Notes under the pieces: generated by a model
The model's database searches: none
Seen by the model: the letters and a program-made list of their open reading frames with translations, nothing else
What the model was told of the DNA's origin: nothing
In this document: positions 1-58,287 of the stretch, one piece after another
How the letters are laid out: each line of letters starts with the position of its first letter
Position numbering within the stretch: position 1 is the stretch's first letter
Origin: Haliangium sp.
Lineage (GTDB): Bacteria > Myxococcota_A > Polyangia > Haliangiales > Haliangiaceae
NCBI RefSeq assembly: GCF_050303215.1
Contig: NZ_JBNLBH010000019.1
Span: 1 to 64,000, forward strand
DNA: 64,000 nt
Direction of reading: 5' to 3'
Program-made: the position numbers and the translations under genes

Positions 1-95
1 TGCACCGTTGCGATGTCATCACGTCCTGAAGGCGATCACCCTCGTTGATGGACATCGCTGAGCTGCTCGCCCGCGTGCAATCGTCGCGATGTCCA

Positions 96-1502
96 TCAGC
101 TACCCTGCTCGCCCTCGCATCGAATAGCCTGCTTCGTAACAATCTCATACGGGAACATCAGCCGTGAGACGTAGCGGGTATCCTTCAGCGCATTAATAAT
201 CTTGCTCTCACCATAAGCGTGAATAGGCCAGCTCTTGCCGTTACGTTCACAGATGTAGATAGACTCGTCCGGCTTTTCCTCCTCTCGCCAGTCATACAGC
301 TTGTAGCTGGTTCGCTCGGCCTCATCTACGGCGACGTAGAAGTCAACCAATGTGGCATCAACATGGGCGATGCGCTTACAGGTGAGATCACGAGCTTTGG
401 CTATCAGCTCTAATGACTGCTTGGGCTTAGCCGGTAACTGTATTGTCTTTGGTAGACGGCGCTCGTAGAGTCGCCGAGAAAGATCTGAAAGGATCGGGTC
501 CGGGTGCCCTCTCCATTCGTCAACGAGGACCCAGACGTGGAATTCGCCCAAGTGGGAATATGTCTCAAGGTCGCACTGTCCACCTGTGTCGAAAAATCGC
601 TTCAATGGATGACGTCGGTCTCGCGTTGAGAATACATCTTTGTCTCCATTGCTTGCCAGCATGACGGCACGACGAAGGACGGAGGTCAGAAGCACGCTCG
701 CAGCCCGCACGGTGTGATGGAAGTAGATGGCTCGATACATTTGATCCAAAGCGACCAAATATCCCTCGACGGTTTCCAACCCCTTGCGATCCACACCGAC
801 CAATTGTCCATCCACATGCCGCAGCATATCCAAAAGACGAGCTAAATCGTAAGTATGGCCGCGAAGTCCGCATGCCGCTGCATCGCGCAGCAGATAATCG
901 AGCCGATCTGCATCGAGCTGACTCGACACTAATTTGTGACTCCAATGTGGTTTCTTTACCTTCTTACTAATATACTCGGCGACGCGTTCGGGAAAGGTCT
1001 GATCGACATGGCCCAGAGTCTCGGCGACAACCGACTCTCTGATGATACGCAAGGTCATCGCTTCGTGAGCGAACTCGATCCCTAGAACATCGAGAGCCTC
1101 CTCGAGAGTATGCGAGAAGGGACCGTGTCCGATGTCGTGCAGCAGTCCTGCCGCACATGTCGCCAGCCGGGTCTCGTCATCGGGCTCTTCACCCATGTTG
1201 CGGCAGATGCGATCGTACATCTCGCCGGCCAGATAGGCCACACCCATCGAGTGACTGAAACGTGAGTGCTCGGCGCCATGGAACACTAAATTGGTCAACC
1301 CGTTCTGACGGATGTGCCGTAGCCTCTGGAAGACTGGGGTGTCGATAAGCCGCTGCATCACCCAGCCGAAGCGCTTGTCACCGAATGCTGGTGAAGGGAT
1401 GTGCCGTTCGTCTTCGACCCGCTCGTAGCGAAGCTGCAAGTGTACTGGGTCGCGGAATAGACGAGGTGCTTTCTCGAATGCCATCCCGGTTGCATCATAC
1501 AC
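96..1502 (-). CDS. HD-domain phosphohydrolase, dGTP triphosphohydrolase (Dgt)-like
   Basis: 468-aa ORF with HD motifs H..HSRFSHSMGV, LLHDIGHGPFSH and DADRLDYLLRD, typical of the dGTPase family. Local GC is about 50-55% against about 70% for the rest of the window. Start could be M at 1502 or 1484. Confidence 0.8.
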   Translation of the reverse strand: MYDATGMAFEKAPRLFRDPVHLQLRYERVEDERHIPSPAFGDKRFGWVMQRLIDTPVFQRLRHIRQNGLTNLVFHGAEHSRFSHSMGVAYLAGEMYDRICRNMGEEPDDETRLATCAAGLLHDIGHGPFSHTLEEALDVLGIEFAHEAMTLRIIRESVVAETLGHVDQTFPERVAEYISKKVKKPHWSHKLVSSQLDADRLDYLLRDAAACGLRGHTYDLARLLDMLRHVDGQLVGVDRKGLETVEGYLVALDQMYRAIYFHHTVRAASVLLTSVLRRAVMLASNGDKDVFSTRDRRHPLKRFFDTGGQCDLETYSHLGEFHVWVLVDEWRGHPDPILSDLSRRLYERRLPKTIQLPAKPKQSLELIAKARDLTCKRIAHVDATLVDFYVAVDEAERTSYKLYDWREEEKPDESIYICERNGKSWPIHAYGESKIINALKDTRYVSRLMFPYEIVTKQAIRCEGEQGS

Positions 1503-1822
1503 ACCGCCTCCGACAATCTCGCTAGCGGAACTACCTGCGGCGGTCGTTCCACTGCTGACTGAATCGCTCTCACCCCCGTCAGATAGGCACCTGAGATACT
1601 CTGGAAGAGCGGCCGCTCCTTTTGTTGCAGTTGGGGGTTACATCGCTCAAGCGCCTGTGTCCAAGCTGACACACGTGTCGAAACCTTCGTGACGCAGCGC
1701 GGCATCCAGCCACAACTCAACGCGAGCTCCGAGGGTGTGAGTGCTTTCACTGGCCCGAAGTTGCCGCACGCCGTCGCCGCGTCGGCCGCGCGCTCCAGCC
1801 CCGGGACGACCAGGCGGCTGCG

Positions 1823-2050
1823 CCGACTCACCCTGGTCCGACGACGGCACCAGGCCAAGGATGCCTTGGATGTCGGCCGCCGGGCCGGACTTGGGTCCAA
1901 GGGGGAGGCGTTCCAGCAAGCGTGCGGCCACCTCGGCCACGCTCTCGCCGCCGAGGATGGCCAGTGGCGACAGATCCTTGGACAAGGCGCCGGCACGCTG
2001 CTGCCCGGCCAAGCCCTTGCGGGGCGCGATGAGCTCGTGCTGCAGAGCCC
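1823..2050 (-). pseudogene. Decayed duplicate of the 3' end of the MVP-like gene (about 75 codons); stop codon mutated TAG to CAG
   Basis: 228 bp align colinearly with 2549..2775 at roughly 89% identity. The fragment encodes ...[55 protein letters not shown], matching the MVP-like C-terminus. Nothing protein-like continues upstream in the same frame. Confidence 0.75.
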
Positions 2051-2543
2051 ACCGAGCGAAGAGCCTATCTGGGCAGAGGCGAGGACGGCACAGGCCCGGG
2101 CGAGCCCACGGCCCGAAGGCGGCGTCGTTGTCTGCTCCGACCAACCCAGATCGGACGGAGGGCCGAGACGATGCCGCGATGGGCAGGAGTACAGAGACGA
2201 GTCGGATGCCAGGACAAGGTCGAGACGAGGTGAACGCCGGCAGCCATGGGGGAGAGAGCCGTTGACCGGAGGGAGAGATAGGCGTTCGTGCGAGTCGTCC
2301 GCCGGTAGGGCCGTGGGCTCGTCTGGGCCGGTCCAGCCCAGCAAGCATCGAACCGGCGACGATCGAATCCCGTACACGCGTGTGCCAGCCCGAATTTGCC
2401 CCCGCTGCCATGCCGACTCGTGCGCACAGCAACCGGAACTCGGGCGTCGCACGGTCCATGGTCGACCACGAATAGACGAGAGCCCACCCTGGACCAGAGG
2501 GCTACCCGCCCACGCGCGCGCCAGCCCCGGGCCGAGCAGGCGT

Positions 2544-4577
2544 CTACGCCGACTCGCCCTGGTCCGGCGACGGCACCAGGCCAAGGATGCCTTGGATGTC
2601 GGCCGCCGGGCCCGACTTGGAGCCCAGGGGCAGACGGTCGAGCAAGCGCGCGGCCACCTCGGCCACGCTCTCGCCGCCGAGGATGGCCAGCGGCGACAGG
2701 TTCTTGGACAAAGCGCCGGCGAGCTGCTGCCCAGCCAGGCCCTTGAGGGTCGCGATGAGCTCGGGCTGCAGCGCCTCCATCTGCTCGCGAAAGGCCGCCG
2801 AGCGCGCGGCCAGGGCCTCCCGCGCCAACCCGGCCTCGCGGTCGGCGATCTCGAGCCGAGCCCGGCTGCGGATCGCGTCGGCCTCAGCCTCGTGCTCGGC
2901 CCGGCCGATCTTGTCCAGGCGGTCGCGCTCGATGATGGTCCCGATCCGCGCCAGCTCCACGGTGCGGCTCACGGCCTCGTGCTCGGCCGCCTTGGCCAGG
3001 GTCTCCATCTGGGCGCCGTAGATCTCTCGGTTGACCGACTCCTTGAGGTTCTCGTCGCCCAGTCGCAGCTCCTCCTGCCTGCGCGTGATCGCCGAGACGA
3101 TCGCCATGCGCTGGGCCTCCTGCAGCATGCGCTCGACGTCCTGGTCCAGGATGCGCACGTCGAGCACCTCGACGTCGTAGACCCACATCCCGTTCTCCTT
3201 GAAGTGCCGCCCCTCGCGCTCGCCGTCGTCGCCGCGCGCGCCCAGGATGGCGGTGCGCAAGATGTCAGTGCTGGTGCCGTGGAAGGTCTCGATCGAACTC
3301 GTCCGCGCGGCCGCGCGGATGATCGAACCGAGGTGGTCGCATAGCAGGCCGACATAGTCCTTGACGTTGAACCAGCGCTCGGAGTCGCCCACGAACGACA
3401 CTCGATACGACAGCAGGATCTCGAGCCCGACGTGGTCGGAGGTCTTGACCCGGACCAGGTCCGACACCTTGTTGCCCTGTACCTGCAAGAAGCAGGTGGG
3501 CAAGAGCTCCTCGTCGCTCTTCGGTCGCCCGGTCGATAAGGTCAGAACCTCGAGCTCCTCGTCGTAGTGCAGGATGCGGGTCTGGGGCCCGCTCACCACC
3601 TCGCGCTTGTTCTTGGCCGTGATCATCACCGCTGTGCTCGGGGGCACGTAGATCGACCACGCCCGGTTGGGGTCGCGGCTGTCGGTGTCGAGCCGGAACA
3701 GCACCGCCCGGCGCTCGTCGAGCCGACGCGTGACCAGTTCCTCGCGGGTGGGATCGACCAGGTAGTTCACCGGACCCTCGACGGTGGTGAGCTTGCCCGT
3801 GCCCAACTCGCGCGCGTAGATGGCCTCGTTTTCGGCCAGCGGGATCGGAGCCACCTCGCCCACGACGTCCAGGTTGTCGGAGGGGAAAAACATGCCCTCG
3901 CGGTCGCGCAGGAAGATGTCCTGCCCGGCCAGGTATCGGCCCTCGGGCACCTGCGCGGCGGGGCCGACCTCGAAGGGCGCGCGCACGCGCAGGTGCAGGC
4001 CCTTGTTGCGCTCCATACGCCAGGCCCGGCGCACGTAGCTGCCGTTGCGGTTGGGCACCACCTCCAGGCCGCTGGGCGGGATGTAGAAGCTCACGTCAGT
4101 GCCGCAGATGATGTGCTCGGTGCCGATCGGCTCGCCGTCGCCCATATCGTCGTACACACGGACGACGAGGTACTGGTCCAGGCGCAGCTCGTGGCCGTCG
4201 ATGACCTGGGCCCGCTGCCCGGGCCAGAGCGGGAACTCGGCCGGGCCGGGCACGACGACCTTGCGCCCGAAGCGGAGCGGGATGGCCGAGTTTGCGCCCT
4301 TGACCGGCTTGTCGTCGGGGTCCTGGGGCGGGTTCTCGAGGATGATGTACTGCGATGATGAGGCCGCGACGAACTTGTGTACCCCCAGCCCGGCCTCGTC
4401 GCCGCGCACGGGCACGAAGCGGCCGTCGCGCAGGATGATCATGCGCTCGGTGTTGGACAGGCTGATCTTGGTGGGGCCGACGTAGAGGACGATGTCTCCC
4501 TTGGTGAGGTCCTGCACGTAGGCGTACTCGTTGGGGGCAACCAGGATGTCGCGTTCGCGAATGTCTCGTTCTGCCAT
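2544..4577 (-). CDS. Major vault protein (MVP) homologue: vault repeats, shoulder domain and coiled-coil cap helix
   Basis: Matches human MVP from my recall of its sequence: [29 protein letters not shown] vs [39 protein letters not shown] vs [27 protein letters not shown] vs [55 protein letters not shown] vs [40 protein letters not shown]. N-terminal repeats have the Y.V.D...G..V.VGP pattern and the C-terminus is a long Ala/Glu/Arg coiled coil. Start taken at [12 protein letters not shown] (4577), inside the longer ORF 2544..4649. Confidence 0.85.
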   Translation of the reverse strand: [677 protein letters not shown]

Positions 4578-4722
4578 GGGCCTTGCTCTCCTTGTGGACT
4601 TGCTGCTCACCGGTCTCCAGGCCAAGAGCAAGCACCGTGCCGGCGGCAAGTGCCGGATTTGCCACGGCTACCAGCCCATGCGCGGCGCCGGACGTGTGTC
4701 TTGTTGGTGCACTTGCTCCGAA

Positions 4723-5922
4723 ATGAACCAGCCCCTGCCCAGCGATCCCTCGATCCCCTTGCCGGCCGTCAGCGCCAATGGCATCGTGCGGACGATGGCA
4801 AGCGGACCCACGACCTATTGGGACTACATCAAGGTGGAAGAGCTCCTGGCTCTGCAGACTGGGCTGGAGGACGACGAGGCGGCGCTGTCGAACGATGAGA
4901 TCATGTTCATCGTCGTGCACCAGATCGACGAGCTTTGGTTCAAGCTGGCCATTCGCGAGCTGGTGTCGGTGCGCGATCTGTTCGCCCAGGAGCACGTCCG
5001 CGAGCAGTCACTGGCCACGGCCGTGCGCGGCATCCGACGGGCCGCGCTGCTGTTCCAGCAGGCCGCCGGGCACTTCGCGCTGATGGAGACCTTGACCACC
5101 CGTGACTACCTGGCGTTCCGCGACAAGCTCAGCCCGGCCAGTGGGTTCCAGTCGGCCCAGATGCGCGAGATCGAGATCATCATGGGCCTGGGCGAGGCCG
5201 AGCGCCTGCCCTTGGGGCACGAGACCTATCAGCAGGCGCTGCGCTACCCGGATGGCTCCGGCTCGCCGGCGTCGCGCCGGGTCGAGCGCCGACTCCACGA
5301 TCGCCCGAGCCTGCGCGAGGCCATCGAGGCCTGGCTGCATCGAACCCCCATCGACGGCTCGGTGCCGGACGGCCCAGATGACGCCGCGCGCGTCACCGCC
5401 TTCATCGACGCGTTCTTGGCCGCCCAGCGGGACGAGATCAACGAGATCAAGACCCGCGCCATGGACAACGCGCTCACTGAGCAAGACCGGGAGCGGCTCG
5501 ACAAGCGCTATCAGGGCGAGCTCGCGGCGGCGCGGTCGTGGCTCGAAGCCCGCGATGTGGAGGTCGGCGACGATGAGTCCCGGCGTGCCTATCGCTCGCG
5601 CGTGCGCGCGGCCTTGGTCTTCATCGAGAGTTACCGCGAGCTGCCGCTGCTGGCCTGGCCGCGCGAGGTCATCGACGCCATCGTGGCCCTGGAGCAGGCG
5701 TTTACGATCTTCCGCCAGCGTCACGCTCGTATGGTCGAGCGCGTCATCGGCCGCCGCACCGGCACCGGAGGCTCGGCCGGGGTCGCCTACCTGGATCAGA
5801 CCGCGCTCGCCTACCGGGTGTTCAGCGACGTCTGGGCCACTCGCACCGTGCTGCTCCGCCGCGCAGTGCTGCCCCCGCTGCGACACCCGGAGCGCTACGG
5901 CTTCGCCGACGCGGACGAGTGA
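4723..5922 (+). CDS. kynA: Tryptophan 2,3-dioxygenase (eukaryote-like long form)
   Basis: TYWDYIKVEELLALQ and DEIMFIVVHQIDELWFKLAIREL match the TDO N-terminal helices. C-terminal RHARMVERVIGRRTGTGGSAGVAYL matches the TDO GTGGSSG motif. The first 64 codons of the ORF (4531..) are Arg/Ser-rich junk, so start moved to MNQPL. Confidence 0.88.
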   Translation: MNQPLPSDPSIPLPAVSANGIVRTMASGPTTYWDYIKVEELLALQTGLEDDEAALSNDEIMFIVVHQIDELWFKLAIRELVSVRDLFAQEHVREQSLATAVRGIRRAALLFQQAAGHFALMETLTTRDYLAFRDKLSPASGFQSAQMREIEIIMGLGEAERLPLGHETYQQALRYPDGSGSPASRRVERRLHDRPSLREAIEAWLHRTPIDGSVPDGPDDAARVTAFIDAFLAAQRDEINEIKTRAMDNALTEQDRERLDKRYQGELAAARSWLEARDVEVGDDESRRAYRSRVRAALVFIESYRELPLLAWPREVIDAIVALEQAFTIFRQRHARMVERVIGRRTGTGGSAGVAYLDQTALAYRVFSDVWATRTVLLRRAVLPPLRHPERYGFADADE

Positions 5923-6014: not shown

Positions 6015-9000
6015 TCAGCGGCACTGTGTCAGCACGGCGTCGAGTTGGGCGGCGAGACGACTCTGGGGCCGACTCTCGATGTCGGCCTCGAGTAGCTCAG
6101 CGCGCGCGCGCGTCGCCAGCTTGCGGGCCTCGCTCAGGTCTGACTCGGACAGCCGGGCCGCACACAGCGCGCGGGCCAGGGCGAGGCGGGTGCGGGCCAG
6201 CGCCAGGGCCGGACCGGGCCGGGCCTCGCGGATCGTCATCGCCCGTCGCAGCGACACAGCGGCGACCTCGGGGTCGCCGAGCGCAAGGTGGACCCGCCCC
6301 AATGCGGTGAGGGTCGCCGCCAGGTCGGGGTGGTCCGCGCCGAGCACGCGCTCCTTCAGCGCAAGCGCGCGCGAGAGTTGGTCGAGCGCCGACGCGTGCT
6401 CGCCCTGGGCGGCCCACATCGCGCCTAGATCGGCGAGCACAGCCGCCGCACGCGCGCCTTCGCCTTCCTCGCGGCGCTCGTAGATCGACAACGCCCGCTG
6501 CAGCGCGGCCTCGGCCTGATCATAAGCGCCAGTGGCCACGAGCGTGCGACCCAGCCCGTGCAGGGCCTCGGCCACCGCGGGGTGATCGGGCGCGAGCAAC
6601 GCCTCGCGGACGGCGAGCGCCTCGCGGAACCGCTCCTCGGCGAGGTCGAGAGCGCCCCGGGCCAGGGCCACGGCCCCAAGGTGCCACACGGCCTCGGCGT
6701 GGCGCTCGTGGCGGCGCCCGAAGGTGGCCTCGCAGATCACCCGGGCGCGCTCCAACTCGTTCTCGGCGACGCCGAGCTGACCACGGGCCATGTGCAGCCG
6801 CCCCCGGCCCAATAGCACCTCGGCCAGGCGGGGATGATCCGCCGGGTAGGCGCGATCGGCGATCTGCCAGGCTTGGTCCAGGGCCTTCTCGGCGGCGTCG
6901 TGATCGCCAAGCATGAGCTGGGCCAGGCCGATGTCCAGCAGGTGCCGAGCCATGCCGGGGGCGTCGTCGCCGAGGTTGGCGCGCTCGATGGCGGCGGCCT
7001 GCTGGAAGCGGCCCAGGGCCTCCTGGAAGCGACTCTGCTCGGTGTGGATGCGGCCGATGCTGATCAGGGGCTCGACCAAGAACAGGTGCTCGGCGCCGCA
7101 CACGTCTTGGGTGGTCTCGATCAAGCGCTCTTGGGACTCCAAGGCCATGTCGTAGTCCGCCTGGGCGAAGTACAGCTCGCCCAGAAAGCTCATGTACTTG
7201 GACACCTGGGGGTGGTCGGCGCCGAGGGTCGCCGTGCCCAGGTCGACCGCCCGGCGCAGCATCGACTCGGCCTCGGCGTTCTCGCCCAGCCGCGCCAAGA
7301 GCATGCCGGCGTGGGCGAGCAAGTCGGCCTCCAAGGCGCCGTCGCCCCCCGCCCGCGAGATCGACGCCGCCGCCATGGGACGCATGCGCAGCGCCTCTTG
7401 ATAACGTCCCTGACCCGCGCCCACCAGCCACATGAGCTTGGTCCACAGCGCCGCCAGCAGGCGATCGTCACGGGCCTCGGCCGCCATGCCGACCGCCTCG
7501 TGGAACCTGATCTCGGCGCTGCTCAGGTTGCCCAGGGCGTGCTGTGTCTGGCCCGACAGATAGCGTGTGCGCGCCTGCAAAGGCGGGAAGTCGAGCTCAT
7601 CGGCGCGCTGTACCAGCCTCGCCAGCGACTCCGACACCGCCCGATACTGACCGATCTGGATCCGGGCCTCGACGTCGTCGACGTCCTCAGTGAGGGTCGC
7701 GATGGCCTGGCGCAGCTCGGGATCGCCCGGCATCGGGTAGGTGTCGCGCAGCGCCAGCTCATCGGTGCAGCCGCGCAGCCCCGGCAACTGTCGGACCGCG
7801 CCCAGGGCACGATCGACCACGGCGCCGTCGAGGCCGCCGTCGTCGCCGATCTCGCGCACGAACACGCCGGTGAGGGCGCGCAGGGTGCCCAAGCGGCGAT
7901 CGAGGCAGCTCATGCTCAGGTCGAGCATGGCCTCCGAGCGCTCGCCGCGGATGTGAGTGGCTTCGCAGGTGTCGACGCGGATGGCGACCCAATCGCGGCC
8001 GTAGGTCTCGATCTCACGCGCCACCTGCTCGAAGGCCTCGCTGGCGTGTGGGCGCCCGCTGGCCGCGAAGCCCGCAGCCACGGTGGCGGCCAGGTCGTCG
8101 TTCCAGACCGTGGCCAGGCGCTCCTCGCTGCCTTGGCACAAGGCCGCGCTGCGGGCACGCTCACCCGTAACCAGAAAGGCCGCGCCCACGACCACCATCA
8201 TCACGAGGGCGGCGATGCCGATGGCCGTGCCCATGCGCACCAGCCGCGCGCCCCGCTGCATGCCGTGCTCGAGGTCGGCCAGGAGGTGATTCATCGAGGG
8301 GTAGCGCTGCTCGGGTTCAGCCGACAGGCCACGGATCATCATGGTCACCAGCCAGGCCGGGGTCCGCGCCTGCGGCGGTGGTGGCTCGATCTGGCCCGAC
8401 GCCATCTGATAAGCAACCTCTTCGGGACGGGTGCCCGAAAATGGCCTATGCCCACACACGGCCTCGTACAAGGCCACGCAGAACGAGAACTGATCGGTGC
8501 GTGCGTCCGTGCTCCCGCCGCCGTACTGCTCCGGAGCCATGTACCCGGGGGTCCCCACCAGCGCGCCGTGAGCGGTCAAGGGGTTGTGGAGGACGCGCCG
8601 AGACGCGAGGTTCGACACCCCGGCTCGGGTGAGGGTGCCGGGCCTCTCCACGGCCGCCGGGTTGAACTGCGCCAACGGCGCGTGCGGATCCTCTCCGTGC
8701 GCGTCGTCGTCGACGGTGGTGTCGACACCGACCTCGGCGGCCGGCTCGGGCGCGGTCTCTACGCCGGCGCCCGCGACCTCCGCGTCCGGTGGCGAGTCCG
8801 AGCCGGGCAGCGACGAGTCGGCGGCTTGCTGCGCCGCTCGGGCCAGACCGAAATCGAGCACGCGCACACGCCCGTCAGCGCCCATCATGACGTTCTCGGG
8901 CTTGAAGTCGCGGTGGACCAGGCCGGCCGCGTGAGCAGCCGCCAGGCCCTGCCCCGCGGCCCAGAACGCGGCCAGGATGTCGCTCAGCGCCGGGGTCTCC

Positions 9001-10061
9001 TCGTCGAGCCAACGACGCAGAGTGACGCCCTCGACTAACTCCATAGCCACGAACACCTGCTCGCCCAAGCGCCCAGCGTCGTATACCGCGATGACGTTGG
9101 GGTGGGCCAACCGGGCCAAAGCCTGGGCCTCACGCAGGAGCCGGGCGCAGGCCTTGTCGACCGATCGTCCGGGGTTCACCCGCATCAGCTTGAGGGCCAC
9201 CTTGCGGTCCAACTCGGGGTCGTAGGCAGTGTAGACCACGCCCATGCCGCCGACGGCTAGGGCGCCCAGCACCACGTACCGCCCTACGCTCGTCCCCACC
9301 GGCAGATATTCGCCGTGACGCCCGGCCACGGCGGTCACCGTGGGGATTTCACCGGTCGCCTGGACCAGACTGAGCTCCGAACCGAGCCGATCCTCGACGT
9401 CGGGCAGCGACTCGACCGAGATCGACAGAGTCGAAGGTTCGGCCACCGCCGTCGCGCGGGTGCCGGGCTCCGCCGGCGACTCGAACGAGGTCACCACGTC
9501 GGCCAGGGACGGCAACGCCGCCGGCGGTGGCTGCCCGGGCCGCCCGCCTTCGAGCTCTTTGTCGTCCGATCGTACGACTCGATACGGACGCGGGCGCGCG
9601 AGCACCCCGGTGGGCGCGTCGATGTCGACGTCGTAGGTTTCGCTGGCGAGGCGATCGCGGGCGCGGAGGTTCCTCGCCCGTGGCTCTCCGTAGCGCCGGG
9701 TGGGCTCCTCGTGAGGAGAGACCGGGTTCCGGCGCACGGTCTCGTCTTCCTGGGTGACGTCCTCGTGGGTCGGGTCTTTTTGGGTGGCGGCTTCCCGCCG
9801 GAGCGCGTCCTCCCGGCGCGCGGCACGCGCGCGCGCACCGCTGGCGAGCTTGGCGTGCAGCGCGGCCCACGTCCGCTCGTCCGGCGCTGGTTGGTCCTCG
9901 ACTACCGTGTCGTCATCGAGGTCGGCGGCCGTAGAGGTGGCCCGTCTCGGCAACGAACGTTCGTCACCCTGGTCGGTCATGGCAAATACGGAGTCGTTTG
10001 AGCTTGGCAGCGACGCGAAGTGCGCGTCTCCCATTGTCTCACTCGGGAGATGAACTTGCAA
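6015..10061 (-). CDS. Ser/Thr protein kinase with long disordered N-terminus, one TM helix and a large C-terminal TPR region
   Basis: Kinase motifs GALAVGGMGVVYTAY, VALKLM, HRDFKPENVMM, DFGLARA, GTPGYMAPE. TM helix IGIAALVMMVVVGAAFLV followed by about 700 aa of TPR-like repeats. Start uncertain (M at 10061, 10034 or further in); it overlaps or abuts the stop of the upstream MscS gene. Confidence 0.8.
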   Translation of the reverse strand: MQVHLPSETMGDAHFASLPSSNDSVFAMTDQGDERSLPRRATSTAADLDDDTVVEDQPAPDERTWAALHAKLASGARARAARREDALRREAATQKDPTHEDVTQEDETVRRNPVSPHEEPTRRYGEPRARNLRARDRLASETYDVDIDAPTGVLARPRPYRVVRSDDKELEGGRPGQPPPAALPSLADVVTSFESPAEPGTRATAVAEPSTLSISVESLPDVEDRLGSELSLVQATGEIPTVTAVAGRHGEYLPVGTSVGRYVVLGALAVGGMGVVYTAYDPELDRKVALKLMRVNPGRSVDKACARLLREAQALARLAHPNVIAVYDAGRLGEQVFVAMELVEGVTLRRWLDEETPALSDILAAFWAAGQGLAAAHAAGLVHRDFKPENVMMGADGRVRVLDFGLARAAQQAADSSLPGSDSPPDAEVAGAGVETAPEPAAEVGVDTTVDDDAHGEDPHAPLAQFNPAAVERPGTLTRAGVSNLASRRVLHNPLTAHGALVGTPGYMAPEQYGGGSTDARTDQFSFCVALYEAVCGHRPFSGTRPEEVAYQMASGQIEPPPPQARTPAWLVTMMIRGLSAEPEQRYPSMNHLLADLEHGMQRGARLVRMGTAIGIAALVMMVVVGAAFLVTGERARSAALCQGSEERLATVWNDDLAATVAAGFAASGRPHASEAFEQVAREIETYGRDWVAIRVDTCEATHIRGERSEAMLDLSMSCLDRRLGTLRALTGVFVREIGDDGGLDGAVVDRALGAVRQLPGLRGCTDELALRDTYPMPGDPELRQAIATLTEDVDDVEARIQIGQYRAVSESLARLVQRADELDFPPLQARTRYLSGQTQHALGNLSSAEIRFHEAVGMAAEARDDRLLAALWTKLMWLVGAGQGRYQEALRMRPMAAASISRAGGDGALEADLLAHAGMLLARLGENAEAESMLRRAVDLGTATLGADHPQVSKYMSFLGELYFAQADYDMALESQERLIETTQDVCGAEHLFLVEPLISIGRIHTEQSRFQEALGRFQQAAAIERANLGDDAPGMARHLLDIGLAQLMLGDHDAAEKALDQAWQIADRAYPADHPRLAEVLLGRGRLHMARGQLGVAENELERARVICEATFGRRHERHAEAVWHLGAVALARGALDLAEERFREALAVREALLAPDHPAVAEALHGLGRTLVATGAYDQAEAALQRALSIYERREEGEGARAAAVLADLGAMWAAQGEHASALDQLSRALALKERVLGADHPDLAATLTALGRVHLALGDPEVAAVSLRRAMTIREARPGPALALARTRLALARALCAARLSESDLSEARKLATRARAELLEADIESRPQSRLAAQLDAVLTQCR

Positions 10062-35938: not shown

Positions 35939-38848
35939 ATGCGACCACATCGACCTTTGGCGGGGCCTATGAAACCCGACTGCCAGGCTCGAATCGAGCC
36001 GCGGCGGCGCAGGCACGACGGGAGATACGCCGGCGCAGCCCTGCTGGCGTGGGTCGCGCTGGTCGCGTGCCGGCCGGCAGAGAACCCGCCCGCGTCCGCA
36101 TTCGCGGGCGAGGTCGAGCACAACCGCGCCGCGCTCGCTCAGCTCTCCAACGGCCTGAGCCAGAACAACCTCGGCCCCAACGGGATCGCGTTCAACCACG
36201 TCAACCCCAGCGGCCTCGCCTTCAACGGCGTGCAGCTCAACCTCGCCTCCCTCAACCTCGCCTCCCTCAACCTCGCCTCGCTCAACCTCGCCTCCCTCAA
36301 CCTCGCCTCCCTCAACGGCGCCGTCTATGAGGACATCTGGCTGAACACGCTCTCCTTCGACGCCGAGGCCATGAGCAACGCGTCTCTCAACGCGGCCTCC
36401 CTCTCCGACGCCACGTTGAGCACGATGAAGATCGACGGGCAGCCCATCAGCGCGCTCGAGGCCGACGACGTCGAGAACATCATCAAGTACCTGGCCGAGT
36501 GCGCCCTCGTCGTGGGGCAGTGCGTCACCGTCACCCGGCTCGACGGCACCACCCAGGACTATTGTGGCTTGGAAGGACACGATCCCACCTGGAACGTGAA
36601 CGTGCCCGATTTGACCAAGTCCGCCGACATGGGCGAGTGCTTCGTCCGTCGCGCCGGCGCAGACGGTCACACAGCCACCCACGAGCCGTGGAACATCGAG
36701 GCCACCAAGATTCTGCTCCAGTACATGGTCGAGTGCGCCCTTTCTCCCGGCCAAAGCGCTACCATCTACGACATCGACGGTGTCACCCCCATGGTGTTCG
36801 AGGGCTCGCTCGGGCTGGCCCCGAGCTGGCGTGACGGCGCGCCCACCTCCGTGGAGCAGCGCAAGGTGTCGGCGTGTCTGGCGGCGCGCTCCAACGCCAA
36901 GGGCAAGAAGGTGCGGATCTCGCTGCGGGGCTCGGGCATCACCACGTCCGCGGTCGAGCGCGCCCACTTCGATACCCACGAGGGCGCGTTCTGGGGCGAC
37001 GTGTTCGGCCCCACCCCCGAAATCCACACTTGCATGGTCACCGGCGGCGGGCTGTCGGGGCGCACCTGCACCGAGGGCGACTGCGGCTTCCGCTCGTTGG
37101 GCGACTGCGCCGACGTGTGCAGCCAGCGCGACCCGGTCGATCTCGCCTACGGTGACTGCGACGGCGAGTCGGCCGTGATCAACACCTTCCTCGATCTGGG
37201 CCAGGAGCTGGCCTTCGGCGACGAGCACAACTGCTTCATTCGCAACGACGGCACGCTGTGGTGCTGGGGCAAGAACAACCTCGGTCAGCTCGGCCTGGGC
37301 TTCGTGTCCGACTTCGAACCCTACCCGCTCCAGGTCATGACCCTGAGCGGCGCCGTGGCCGAGGTCTCGGGCGGCTGGCGCCACACCTGCGCCCGCACCA
37401 CCAGTGGCGATGGGTACTGCTGGGGCCTGAACAGCAAGGGGCAGCTCGGTGACGGCACCATCGTCGACCGCTCCAAGCCGACCTACGTCTCCGCCCTGAG
37501 CAGCGACGTCGCCGCGATCTCGGCCAACGACCGCCATAGCTGCGCCCGCCGCACCGACGGCACCCTACACTGCTGGGGCAACAACGACTTCGGTCAGGTC
37601 GGCGACGGCAGCGGCGTCGACCAGCCCCTGCCGGTGCCGGTGAGCGCGCTCGGCAACCAGGTCTCGGAGCGCTCGCTGGGCTCGCGCTCGCGCTCGAGCT
37701 GCGCCATCACCATCAGCGGCGATCTGTACTGCTGGGGCCGAAACGACTACGGTCAGGTCGGCGACGGTAGCCTCGTCGATCGCCTCGTCCCGGTGGTCGT
37801 GGACCAGGACGCCGGCGGCGGTGCCTTCGGCGCCGTGACCGACGTCTGCGGCGGCGAGGCCCACACCTGCGCGCGCCGCAGCGACGGCACGGTGTGGTGC
37901 TGGGGTCAGGATTCCCAGTACCAGATCGGCGCCGGCGCCCCGACCCTGAGCCCCCGCCCCCGACCGGTCCAGACCGCGTTCCCGGGCTTCGCCGCGCCCG
38001 GCGGCCTGTCCTGCGGACGCGACCACACCTGCGCCATCCGCGACGACGGGGCCTTGTTCTGCTGGGGCGCAAACGATTTCGGCGAGGTCGGCGACGGCAC
38101 CTCCAGCCCGGCCGAGATCCCGACCCAGGTCACCGCCCTCGGCACCGACGTCGAGCTGGTGACCTGCCAGGGCGAGACGAGCTGCGCGGTGAGCTTTGAC
38201 GGCACCCTGTCGTGCTGGGGCCGAGATACGCACGCGCTGCTGTTCCCGGGTTGGTCCTCGTCGGTGCCGGTCGTCGTCGACCTGGCCTGCAACCACAACG
38301 CGGTGTGCGAGCCCGAGCACGCGGAGTCCTGTGACACCTGCGCCGCCGACTGCGGCGTGTGCGACACCGCTCGGGTGTCGCTGGCCCCGAGTGACGACAC
38401 CGAGGCCCGGGCCAAGAAGCCCGACACCAGCTACGGCGGGCAAGACCCGATCACGAGCGTGGCCTCGGCCCTCGCCGAGGAGCGCTTGCTGCTGCGCTTC
38501 GACCTCTCCGCCGCCCCCGGCTCCAGCGTGAGCCAAGCCATCCTGCGCCTGTACTCCAACGACCCCAGCGGGGTGTGCGACTTGGTGCGGATCGACGACG
38601 ACGGCTGGAGCGAAGACACCCTCACCTGGAACGACATGCCGGCGCCCGGGGTCAGCCTCGGGGCGGTGAGCGGCGTGGCCGGCGGCTGGGTGTACGTAGA
38701 CGTCACCGACTACGTCAGCGACGAGTACGCCGGCGACGGCGTGGTCAGCTTCGCCTGCGTGGCCCAGTCCGGCACCTTCTCCATCGCCTCCAAGGAAGAC
38801 GCTGCGCCCGCGGTTCATCCGGTCCTCGATGTGGACGTCACGCCATAG
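35939..38848 (+). CDS. Secreted lipoprotein: pentapeptide-like repeats, 7-bladed RCC1 propeller, C-terminal DNRLRE domain
   Basis: Lipobox LVAC. Pentapeptide-like 5-residue periodicity GIAFN/GLAFN/GVQLN/(LASLN)x5. Six RCC1 signatures such as WCWGKNNLGQLGLG, YCWGLNSKGQLGDG and HCWGNNDFGQVGDG. C-terminal LRLYSNDPSGVCDLVRIDDDGWSEDTLTWNDMP matches the DNRLRE domain. Confidence 0.85.
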   Translation: MRPHRPLAGPMKPDCQARIEPRRRRHDGRYAGAALLAWVALVACRPAENPPASAFAGEVEHNRAALAQLSNGLSQNNLGPNGIAFNHVNPSGLAFNGVQLNLASLNLASLNLASLNLASLNLASLNGAVYEDIWLNTLSFDAEAMSNASLNAASLSDATLSTMKIDGQPISALEADDVENIIKYLAECALVVGQCVTVTRLDGTTQDYCGLEGHDPTWNVNVPDLTKSADMGECFVRRAGADGHTATHEPWNIEATKILLQYMVECALSPGQSATIYDIDGVTPMVFEGSLGLAPSWRDGAPTSVEQRKVSACLAARSNAKGKKVRISLRGSGITTSAVERAHFDTHEGAFWGDVFGPTPEIHTCMVTGGGLSGRTCTEGDCGFRSLGDCADVCSQRDPVDLAYGDCDGESAVINTFLDLGQELAFGDEHNCFIRNDGTLWCWGKNNLGQLGLGFVSDFEPYPLQVMTLSGAVAEVSGGWRHTCARTTSGDGYCWGLNSKGQLGDGTIVDRSKPTYVSALSSDVAAISANDRHSCARRTDGTLHCWGNNDFGQVGDGSGVDQPLPVPVSALGNQVSERSLGSRSRSSCAITISGDLYCWGRNDYGQVGDGSLVDRLVPVVVDQDAGGGAFGAVTDVCGGEAHTCARRSDGTVWCWGQDSQYQIGAGAPTLSPRPRPVQTAFPGFAAPGGLSCGRDHTCAIRDDGALFCWGANDFGEVGDGTSSPAEIPTQVTALGTDVELVTCQGETSCAVSFDGTLSCWGRDTHALLFPGWSSSVPVVVDLACNHNAVCEPEHAESCDTCAADCGVCDTARVSLAPSDDTEARAKKPDTSYGGQDPITSVASALAEERLLLRFDLSAAPGSSVSQAILRLYSNDPSGVCDLVRIDDDGWSEDTLTWNDMPAPGVSLGAVSGVAGGWVYVDVTDYVSDEYAGDGVVSFACVAQSGTFSIASKEDAAPAVHPVLDVDVTP
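36236..36310 (+). repeat. Perfect in-frame 15-bp x5 tandem repeat (ctcaacctcgcctcc; one C/G variant) encoding (LASLN)x5
   Basis: Read directly from the sequence; lies inside the RCC1 lipoprotein gene. Confidence 0.9.
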
Positions 38849-58180: not shown

Positions 58181-58287
58181 CCCGACACCTGCGGTTCGGT
58201 CAGGTCGAGCTGCTCACCAGACACTGCCCACAACGTTGGCAAGTACGGCACCCGACACCTGCGGTTCGGTCAGGTCGAGCTGCTCAC
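58181..58287. repeat. 37-bp perfect direct repeat x2 (cccgacacctgcggttcggtcaggtcgagctgctcac) separated by 33 bp
   Basis: Copies at 58181..58217 and 58251..58287. The second copy contains the tsaE stop codon. Each copy holds an acctg/caggt inverted repeat. Confidence 0.9.

What the first reader, a model, noticed from the sequence alone, without database searches (positions are those of the whole stretch)
1823..2775. Decayed 228-bp duplicate of the MVP gene 3' end, 500 bp downstream of the intact gene
1823..2050 matches 2549..2775 at about 89% identity and encodes the last about 75 codons of MVP, with the stop TAG mutated to CAG. Nothing else in the 1503..2543 gap is coding. This could be a remnant of a 3'-end-targeted integration or excision event (att-like duplication) or of a tandem paralogue lost when the low-GC HD gene arrived.
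Basis: seen in the sequence. Interest (0 to 1): 0.5.

Follow-up and report, generated by a model that had tools for sequence, protein, structure and literature searches.

The report
Orphan copy of vault gene's end
A 263-base second copy of the tail end of a bacterial vault-protein (MVP-like) gene lies just downstream of the real gene, at the edge of foreign-looking DNA. It is real, but is most likely a functionless scar of a past DNA insertion, which is an ordinary kind of genome fossil.

Summary
The repeat is real. Window 1787-2049 matches 2513-2775 (263 nt, no gaps, 89.4% identical, blastn E about 1e-96). It is the only high-identity repeat in the 64 kb. It covers the last 77 codons of a Haliangium MVP-like gene, the stop codon (TAG, CAG in the copy) and 31 nt beyond.

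None of 66 related MVP loci has a second 3' end, so it is private to this genome and not a conserved element. The 463-nt spacer and the 284 nt to the left match nothing and show no coding or RNA signal.

The copy does not look like a fragment that was dead from the start:
- pN/pS between the copies is 0.21.
- 10 of 16 changes on the copy's own branch are synonymous.
- There are no indels.
- Two perfectly identical tracts (45 and 41 nt) interrupt stretches that are 15-23% diverged.

It abuts a low-GC segment (GC3 0.61 against 0.93) carrying a defence-type HD phosphohydrolase gene.

Best reading (about 0.45): an att-like relic of foreign DNA that integrated at the MVP 3' end, comparable to icd/icdC at prophage e14. 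No integrase or element is visible. The contig beyond the window's left edge could not be retrieved. Interest is low.

The parts
2544..4577 (-). Intact MVP-like (major vault protein homologue) gene, 677 aa
   Evidence: Pfam MVP_shoulder 8e-29 and Vault_3. Matches PDB major vault proteins at E = 4e-27 over residues 150-604. 100% identical to P0001 = WP_428261843.1, Haliangium sp.. GC3 0.93.
2513..2775 (-). Resident repeat copy B: last 77 codons, stop TAG (2546-2544) and 31 nt of 3' flank
   Evidence: Outgroups agree with B at 16 of the 19 differences that could be polarised.
2050..2512 (.). 463-nt spacer between the repeats; non-coding, origin unknown
   Evidence: GC 0.676 with flat codon-phase GC. 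No Pfam match. No similarity to relatives' loci, to the rest of the window or to plasmids. No Rfam match and fold z-scores of -0.6 and -0.3.
1787..2049 (-). Orphan repeat copy A: MVP 3' end without the rest of the gene
   Evidence: 89.4% identical to B, with 28 substitutions and no indels. 16 derived changes, including four radical replacements at invariant residues. GC3 0.86 against 0.94 in B. pN/pS 0.21.
1818..1820 (-). Former stop codon, now CAG
1842..1886 (-). 45-nt tract identical in both copies (B: 2568-2612), in a part of the gene that varies among orthologues. Candidate crossover core or gene-conversion tract.
   Evidence: A-B 100% here against B-orthologue 60-76%. The second-longest identical run has P = 0.006 under random placement of the differences.
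1924..1964 (-). 41-nt tract identical in both copies (B: 2650-2690). It encodes the family-wide motif [16 protein letters not shown].
1647..1985 (-). ORF annotated in RefSeq as a 112-aa hypothetical protein (TTG start inside copy A, read-through of the lost stop); probably not a real gene
   Evidence: P0244. The read-through tail has GC3 0.63 and there is no Shine-Dalgarno sequence.
1503..1786 (.). Junction region. GC falls from 0.67 (1701-1786) to 0.59 (1503-1700). It lies upstream of the HD gene.
   Evidence: no similarity to anything
96..1502 (-). Low-GC HD-domain phosphohydrolase gene (dGTPase/SAMHD1-like), the edge of an accessory segment that runs off the window
   Evidence: Pfam HD + HD_assoc_2. 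Weak PADLOC dGTPase and NCBIfam dGTPase matches, below their cut-offs. GC 0.545, GC3 0.61. The nearest homologue (59%) lies among DUF1156/DUF499/SMC_N/methylase genes.
4531..5922 (+). Tryptophan 2,3-dioxygenase gene, divergent from MVP. It is the synteny anchor shared with the nearest relatives.
   Evidence: Pfam. The TDO-MVP pair is conserved in L005 and L062, and synteny ends at the MVP stop.

Best explanation
**What it is.** Copy A (1787-2049) is an orphaned, now non-functional alternative 3' end of the MVP-like gene. It was left by a recombination event in which foreign DNA integrated at the 3' end of MVP.

**How it arose (inferred).**
1. The incoming DNA carried its own version of the last 77 codons plus stop plus 31 nt. 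Alternatively, it displaced the host's version.
2. After a Campbell-type or att-type crossover, the gene stayed intact (copy B) and a second copy was stranded downstream as a direct repeat.
3. This is what prophage e14 does at icd in E. coli, leaving the icdC fragment.
4. The DNA between the repeats has since shrunk to 463 non-coding bases.
5. The low-GC HD-gene segment that starts about 90 nt beyond copy A is either a second element accreted at the same site or the neighbouring accessory DNA.
6. Since being stranded, copy A has lost its stop, picked up four radical replacements and begun to lose GC3.

**Shown here.**
- The repeat and its exact extent.
- Its absence from relatives.
- The non-coding spacer.
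- The selected-type substitution pattern.
- The identical tracts.
- The compositional break.

**Inferred, not shown.**
- That an integrating element caused it.
- Which copy came from where.
- Where the crossover was.

**Probable present role.** None, except as a substrate for a 726-bp deletion by recombination with copy B.
For: 1. The duplicated block is exactly 'gene end + stop + short tail', in direct orientation with sharp ends. This is the anatomy of gene-end att duplications such as icd/icdC (PMC13626634).
2. The divergence is not that of a fragment dead on arrival.
   - pN/pS = 0.21 (Sd 15, Nd 8; Fisher p = 1.2e-4).
   - On copy A's own branch 10 of 16 changes are synonymous, against 4.6-5.6 expected under neutral mutation (P = 0.004-0.017).
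   - No indels among 28 differences.
   - So copy A was a translated MVP end during most of its separate history, meaning the two copies come from two lineages.
3. Identity is patchy. Tracts of 45 and 41 identical nt sit between blocks that are 15-23% diverged. The 45-nt tract lies where orthologues are only 60-76% identical. Second-longest run P = 0.006. This fits a crossover core or later conversion.
4. Copy A lies within about 90 nt of the drop to low-GC DNA carrying an HD gene (GC3 0.61 against 0.93). The nearest homologue of that gene sits in a defence-island-like neighbourhood.
5. Synteny with the nearest relatives (TDO-MVP pair) ends at the MVP stop. The downstream neighbour differs between clades: Lactamase_B, a 442-aa protein, or a convergent FG-GAP gene. 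None of these is in the window.
6. The duplicate is absent from all 66 related loci.
Against: - Only 463 non-coding bases lie between the repeats. No integrase, transposase or other element gene is visible anywhere in 1-2543. The model therefore needs a later internal deletion that spared both repeats.
- No related genome shows anything integrated at the MVP 3' end, or low-GC DNA directly after the MVP stop. No viral contig carries an MVP end.
- Branch lengths are very unequal (16 changes on A, 3 on B; binomial p = 0.004). Eight of the 10 third-position changes on A's branch go from G/C to A/T. That also fits decay in place.
- All the statistics rest on 23-28 substitutions.
- Splitting copy A into a 'relaxed' 5' part and a 'selected' 3' part is post hoc. 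By my count from the table it is not significant (7:5 against 8:3 synonymous:non-synonymous).
- The far side of the low-GC segment lies outside the window, and the contig could not be fetched.
Confidence: 0.45

Rival explanations
1. In-place illegitimate duplication. During a break-repair or template-switch event, possibly the one that joined the low-GC HD segment to this locus, 263 nt of the nearby MVP 3' end were copied 463 nt downstream as filler. The copy was never functional. Later gene conversion from copy B made the two identical tracts.
For: - Copy A sits at the host/low-GC junction.
- Nothing element-like lies between the repeats.
- A's branch is long and B's is short (16 against 3). 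A's third positions drift to A/T, and four radical replacements hit invariant residues.
- The stop is lost.
- The event is unique to this genome.
Against: - A dead-on-arrival copy should show pN/pS near 1. Observed is 0.21, and 10 of 16 A-branch changes are synonymous (P = 0.004-0.017 in simulations with G/C sites weighted 1 to 10 times).
- No indels in 28 differences.
- It needs two separate conversion tracts.
- Templated insertions of 263 nt are unusual in bacteria (my own knowledge, not tested).
Confidence: 0.2
2. One-sided homologous recombination (homology-facilitated illegitimate recombination). A linear fragment from a close relative carried MVP plus 463 nt of its own downstream flank. 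It recombined by homology upstream and joined illegitimately inside the recipient's MVP at 2049|2050. Copy B and the spacer are then the donor's, and copy A is the recipient's original gene end, still attached to its native HD-gene neighbour.
For: - It needs a single event.
- It explains the selected-type divergence as allelic divergence.
- It explains the sharp 5' end of copy A, and the end of homology 31 nt after the stop as the point where two different downstream flanks begin.
- It explains why copy A is contiguous with the HD region.
Against: - Two functional alleles should have similar branch lengths. Observed is 16 against 3.
- There is no obvious microhomology at the junction (sequence).
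- The 45-nt identical tract in a variable region needs an extra conversion event.
- No donor-like genome is known; the nearest relatives are 80% identical.
Confidence: 0.13
3. Remnant of a tandem MVP paralogue. A second complete MVP gene once lay downstream. It evolved under selection and exchanged conversion tracts with the first, then lost its first 1.8 kb by deletion.
For: Selected-type substitutions and patchy identity typical of tandem paralogues.
Against: - In a tandem duplication, the DNA just after copy B's tail should be homologous to the start of the duplicated unit (MVP upstream region or gene). The spacer matches nothing in the MVP gene or in the 59 kb upstream.
- None of the 66 related loci has two MVP genes.
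Confidence: 0.07
4. Copy A is a live small gene (RefSeq's 112-aa hypothetical protein, 1647-1985 minus). It would make a free MVP C-terminal module that could join or cap the MVP assembly.
For: - The frame is open.
- The family-wide motif [20 protein letters not shown] is intact.
- Downstream of the annotated TTG start, by my count from the table, A-branch changes are 7 synonymous to 2 conservative replacements, while all four radical changes lie upstream of it.
- NCBI's pipeline called it.
Against: - Half of the ORF is read-through of a lost stop, with GC3 0.63 against 0.87-0.93 for real genes here.
- There is no Shine-Dalgarno sequence and the start is TTG.
- No promoter-like site was found.
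- No Pfam match.
- No stand-alone homologue elsewhere. The short hit that could be read (L073) is a frameshifted or partial MVP gene; the P0246 contig looks like a truncated MVP fragment, but no DNA was available.
Confidence: 0.06
5. Assembly artefact of a metagenome-derived or draft genome.
For: The source is a draft contig. A sibling assembly differs by 5 bp in contig length and has a different HD C-terminus.
Against: - Assemblers create exact repeats or collapse them. They do not create an 89%-identical copy with a codon-structured substitution pattern.
- The sibling assembly carries the same copy-A ORF.
Confidence: 0.02

Closest known systems
icd / icdC at cryptic prophage e14 (and phage 21) in Escherichia coli K-12
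   Same: An integrating element targets the 3' end of a protein-coding gene and supplies a slightly different replacement end. The gene stays intact and an orphan C-terminal fragment pseudogene remains as a direct repeat. The two copies differ mostly by synonymous or conservative changes and can recombine (PMC13626634, read).
   Different: In E. coli the repeats flank a 15-kb element with its integrase. Here they flank only 463 non-coding bases, and no recombinase is visible. Here the orphan has also lost its stop and carries radical replacements.
Tandem accretion of integrative elements at one att site (ICE plus CIME arrays in Streptococcus thermophilus; my own knowledge, not checked in a paper here)
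   Same: The expected order is gene end, decayed element remnant, internal att copy, second element. That matches copy B, spacer, copy A, low-GC HD segment.
   Different: The third att copy and the integrase that this model requires would lie beyond the window's left edge and could not be examined.
Homology-facilitated illegitimate recombination in naturally transformable bacteria (my own knowledge)
   Same: One homologous anchor and one illegitimate joint can insert foreign DNA and leave a partial duplicate of the anchor's neighbourhood.
   Different: It is described experimentally in Acinetobacter and Streptococcus. Nothing is known for Haliangium, and no microhomology is evident at 2049|2050.
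Orphan C-terminal cassettes downstream of polymorphic toxin genes (rhs, cdiA; my own knowledge)
   Same: A promoterless 3' fragment, with a stretch of homology to the main gene, lies just downstream of it.
   Different: Those cassettes encode divergent toxin tips with cognate immunity genes and usually occur in arrays. Here the fragment is 89% identical to the resident end, single, has no partner gene and has lost its stop.

Membership tests
Gene-3'-end att duplication left by an integrative element (e14/icd-icdC type) | Direct repeat made of the target gene's 3' end including the stop codon; the proximal copy completes an intact gene and the distal copy is a fragment | tested here: met
   intact 677-aa MVP identical to the RefSeq protein
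Gene-3'-end att duplication left by an integrative element (e14/icd-icdC type) | An element with a site-specific recombinase gene lies between the two repeats | tested here: not met
   Only 463 nt lie between them, with no ORF with coding composition, no Pfam match and no similarity to anything
Gene-3'-end att duplication left by an integrative element (e14/icd-icdC type) | The repeats share an identical core flanked by diverged arms that come from two lineages | tested here: inconclusive
   Identical tracts of 45 and 41 nt (second-longest run P = 0.006) and pN/pS 0.21 fit this, but gene conversion gives the same picture
Gene-3'-end att duplication left by an integrative element (e14/icd-icdC type) | Related genomes show the empty site, or other elements at the same site | tested here: inconclusive
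   All 66 related loci have a single MVP end and nothing low-GC directly after the stop. The closest are only 78-80% identical in MVP, so they are not true empty sites.
Tandem accretion array (remnant element + internal att + second element) | A third att copy and a recombinase at the far end of the second element | not testable with these tools
   The low-GC segment runs off the window at position 1. The contig is not retrievable and the genome is not in genome contigs.
Neutrally decaying pseudogene fragment from an in-place duplication | Substitutions on the fragment's branch are spread evenly over codon positions (pN/pS about 1), with indels | tested here: not met
   A-branch codon positions 3:3:10. 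10 of 16 synonymous against about 5 expected (P = 0.004-0.017). No indels.
Simple tandem duplication / tandem paralogue remnant | The sequence after the first copy repeats after the second copy, or matches the upstream part of the duplicated unit | tested here: not met
   Spacer 2050-2512 matches neither 1324-1786 nor anything else in the window. No tandem MVP genes in 66 loci.
Conserved cis-regulatory or RNA element downstream of MVP | Present in relatives; structured or matching a known RNA family | tested here: not met
   Absent from relatives. No Rfam match at E up to 1. Fold z-scores -0.6 and -0.3. No terminator or promoter consensus.
Major vault protein family (the intact gene whose end is duplicated) | MVP shoulder domain and vault repeats above Pfam thresholds; homology to solved MVP structures | tested here: met
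   MVP_shoulder 100.5 bits (cut-off 25) and Vault_3 29.6 bits (cut-off 28.8). PDB MVP chains at E = 4e-27. Whether it forms a vault-like shell was not tested.
Anti-phage dGTPase (the neighbouring HD gene) | Score above the NCBIfam or PADLOC family thresholds over the full length | tested here: not met
   Only the HD core matches: 30-43 bits against cut-offs of 152-400. It is an HD + HD_assoc_2 protein of unassigned subfamily.

The most novel reading that the evidence does not exclude
The 3' end of the MVP-like gene would be a dedicated attachment site for low-GC defence islands in this Haliangium lineage. Copy A would be the island-borne replacement gene end, kept under protein-level selection while evolving at the island's lower GC. 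That would explain the excess of synonymous, A/T-directed changes. The B / spacer / A / HD-segment order would be a tandem accretion array that can still recombine. A weaker variant is that the orphan is expressed as a free MVP C-terminal module.
Probability: 0.12. Interest if true: 0.4.

Novelty: new member of a known kind. Interest (0 to 1): 0.2.

Why it matters
The finding matters little beyond this locus.
- It marks the MVP 3' flank as a recombination breakpoint in one Haliangium genome.
- It gives a dated footprint of how a low-GC, defence-type HD gene came to lie beside a conserved TDO-MVP block.
- It flags a probable RefSeq over-annotation (the 112-aa protein).
- It warns that the two repeats could produce a 726-bp deletion and a read-through MVP.
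- If the full contig shows a recombinase and a third repeat, it would be the first described island attachment site inside a bacterial vault-protein gene. That would be a modest addition to a well-known class of events.

Tried and rejected
- **Fetching the source contig** to see beyond the window's left edge. Exact-protein look-ups for MVP (two forms) and the HD protein (two forms) found nothing on record. The genome is not among the species representatives.
- **Remnants of the relatives' downstream genes** in 1503-2543 (Lactamase_B, the 442-aa and 282-aa proteins). Nothing better than E = 0.37.
- **Function for the spacer.** No Rfam family, tRNA, terminator or promoter consensus, tandem repeat, Pfam domain in any frame or plasmid similarity. 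Fold energies are ordinary. The 32-nt imperfect inverted repeat 2083-2114 / 2308-2339 is no better than many others in this GC-rich region.
- **Extending the repeat** beyond 263 nt with gapped alignment. The extension is GC-rich noise.
- **Metagenome scan** with the conserved 3' motif. Six contigs, each with one match and no duplicates.
- **Viral contigs** for MVP, for its 3' motif and for the HD protein. Nothing.
- **Stand-alone C-terminal peptides.** One 70-aa hit (L073) is a frameshifted partial MVP at a contig start. The other looks like a truncated MVP fragment, but no DNA was available.
- **Donor lineage** whose MVP end is closer to copy A than copy B is. None found. Copy A is 67-76% identical to orthologues against 85% to B in the block where A and B differ most.
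- **Polarising the differences 3' of the 45-nt tract.** The C-terminal tails of orthologues do not align.
Full report
**1. The observation**

The window carries one direct repeat, 1787-2049 against 2513-2775. It is 263 nt long, ungapped, 89.4% identical, with a spacing of 726.
- A local alignment with standard penalties stops at exactly these ends. Softer penalties only add GC-rich noise.
- blastn gives E = 4.5e-98 against the window.
- A self-comparison of the whole window shows it is the only repeat above 70% identity longer than 40 nt.

The right-hand copy (B) is the end of a minus-strand gene, 2544-4577.
- The product is 677 aa and matches Pfam MVP_shoulder (100.5 bits) and Vault_3.
- It also matches solved major vault proteins at E = 4e-27.
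- It is 100% identical to a RefSeq 'hypothetical protein' of Haliangium sp., WP_428261843.1.
- Bacterial MVP homologues in Myxococcales have been noted before (bioRxiv 10.1101/872010).

The block comprises the last 77 sense codons, the stop and 31 nt of 3' flank. In the left-hand copy (A) the stop TAG is CAG.

**2. The surroundings**

- *Spacer.* Between the copies lie 463 nt (2050-2512) with GC 0.676 and flat GC over the three codon phases. Real genes here have GC3 of 0.87-0.93.
  - No frame has a Pfam match at E up to 1.
  - There is no Rfam family, tRNA, terminator or promoter consensus, or tandem repeat.
  - Folding energies equal those of shuffles.
  - The spacer resembles nothing in the other 63 kb of the window, in 70 fetched loci or in PLSDB plasmids.
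- *Left of copy A.* GC falls from 0.67 (1701-1786) to 0.59 (1503-1700).
- *HD gene.* A minus-strand HD + HD_assoc_2 gene follows at 96-1502.
  - Its GC is 0.545 and its GC3 is 0.61. Its 2-kb bin is the only one in the window below 0.65.
  - It matches dGTPase models only weakly, below their cut-offs.
  - Its nearest homologue (59%, Kofleriaceae) lies among DUF1156, DUF499, SMC_N and methylase genes, which is a defence-island-like setting.
- *RefSeq ORF.* RefSeq annotates a 112-aa ORF (1647-1985) that starts at a TTG inside copy A and reads through the lost stop. Its read-through half has GC3 0.63 and no Shine-Dalgarno sequence. I take it to be an over-call.

**3. Relatives**

The MVP family is large in Myxococcota, but nothing lies between 80% and 100% identity to this protein.
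- I examined 66 loci with an MVP gene, from GTDB representatives, metagenomes and exact-protein look-ups. Each has a single MVP gene and a single 3' end within 10 kb either side. The duplicate is therefore neither a conserved element nor a recurrent feature.
- The nearest syntenic relatives (L005 and L062, Haliangium/Haliangiales) share the divergent TDO-MVP pair and the genes beyond it. Synteny stops at the MVP stop.
- Downstream neighbours vary: a 442-aa protein in that clade, Lactamase_B in another, and a convergent FG-GAP gene in a third.
- None of these neighbours, nor any remnant of them, is in the window.
- No relative has low-GC DNA directly after the MVP stop.

**4. What the substitutions say**

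All 28 differences are substitutions. Twenty-four fall in the coding part, at codon positions 6:3:15.

*Polarity.* I polarised the differences with six outgroups.
- 16 changes fall on copy A's branch, 3 on copy B's and 4 are unresolved (binomial p = 0.004).
- Copy A carries P->H, T->P and two L->R replacements at residues invariant in all orthologues.
- Its GC3 is down to 0.86 from 0.94.
- Copy A is therefore the non-functional copy.

*Pattern.* The pattern is not that of a fragment that was dead from the start.
- pN/pS between the copies is 0.21 (Fisher p = 1.2e-4).
- 10 of the 16 A-branch changes are synonymous, where neutral mutation gives 4.6-5.6. That holds even if G/C sites mutate ten times faster (P = 0.004-0.017).
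- There are no indels.

*Patchiness.* Blocks of 85% and 77% identity alternate with tracts of 41 and 45 identical nt.
- The 41-nt tract encodes the family-wide motif [16 protein letters not shown]. It is conserved at the DNA level in orthologues too.
- The 45-nt tract lies where orthologues are only 60-76% identical.
- Two such runs are unlikely under random placement of the differences (P = 0.006).
- In the most diverged block, A is as far from B (85%) as B is from an orthologue whose whole protein is 80% identical.

*Inference.* Copy A spent most of its separate history as the translated end of an MVP gene, in another lineage, on an element or as a paralogue. It was stranded only later. The identical tracts are either a crossover core or later conversion. 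These statistics rest on about two dozen sites.

**5. Mechanism**

*Models that fail.* A simple tandem duplication and a tandem-paralogue remnant both predict that the DNA after copy B's tail is repeated after copy A, or is homologous to the start of the duplicated unit. The spacer matches nothing. No relative has tandem MVP genes.

*Models that remain.* In these, foreign DNA was inserted between two versions of the gene end.
- I favour an att-type or Campbell-type integration at the MVP 3' end, with a replacement end supplied by the incoming DNA, as e14 does at icd leaving icdC (PMC13626634). It explains the exact content of the repeat, the two-lineage substitution pattern, the identical core and the position at the edge of accessory DNA.
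- Its weakness is that no element or recombinase lies between the repeats. A later internal deletion is needed. The HD segment must then be a second, accreted element or an unrelated neighbour.
- A one-sided homologous recombination event and an in-place templated duplication with later conversion remain open.
- My probabilities:

| Reading | Probability |
|---|---|
| att-type relic | 0.45 |
| in-place duplication | 0.20 |
| one-sided recombination | 0.13 |
| paralogue remnant | 0.07 |
| live small gene | 0.06 |
| assembly artefact | 0.02 |

**6. Comparison with what is known, and verdict**

- The feature works like the icd/icdC pair. It fails one defining test for membership, because there is no element between the repeats. 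Two further tests are inconclusive.
- It is not a conserved regulatory element, not an RNA, and very probably not a gene.
- It is a new instance of a known kind of genomic scar.
- The decisive evidence lies just outside the window: the far end of the low-GC segment, a recombinase and a third repeat.
- Interest is low (0.2).

Noticed in passing
window 6015-10061 (minus): A 1348-aa Ser/Thr kinase-TPR gene sits between the TDO gene and the mechanosensitive-channel gene. In the syntenic relatives L005 and L062 those two genes are adjacent. This looks like a second lineage-specific insertion close to the MVP locus.
   Followed up: partly
window 1-160: A sibling assembly (contig 149,091 bp against 149,096 bp) encodes the same HD protein with a different C-terminus (...PYEIRDDMQAGALR instead of ...PYEIVTKQAIRCEGEQGS). 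That ending is not encoded anywhere in the window. A 31-nt imperfect inverted repeat (28-58 / 86-116) overlaps the HD stop. There may be structural variation at the HD gene's 3' end.
   Followed up: partly
L071 1-12768 (Kofleriaceae, GCA_035715365.1): The closest homologue of the HD protein (59%) lies directly after DUF1156, DUF499, SMC_N/AAA_23 and N6_N4_Mtase genes. This is a restriction-modification or defence-island-like cluster.
   Followed up: no
L001 15000-18253: In an 80%-identical relative, a low-GC stretch (0.48-0.57 against 0.67) begins 3 kb downstream of MVP, after the Lactamase_B and HTH genes. It includes an EMARD_N-domain gene. Accessory DNA lies near the MVP locus in another lineage, but not at the gene's end.
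   Followed up: no
window 58181-58217 and 58251-58287: A perfect 37-nt direct repeat (CCCGACACCTGCGGTTCGGTCAGGTCGAGCTGCTCAC), two copies 33 nt apart, lies in the lower-GC part of the window (54-60 kb, GC 0.66-0.68).
   Followed up: no
window 2650-2690 and orthologues: The stretch encoding [16 protein letters not shown] near the MVP C-terminus is 94% identical at the DNA level to an orthologue (L001) whose whole protein is only about 80% identical. It is the most conserved part of the C-terminal region, and it lies beyond the part that aligns to solved eukaryotic MVP structures.
   Followed up: no
window 37241-37795: An internal repeat of about 150-nt period at 66-67% identity, presumably a repeated protein module.
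   Followed up: no
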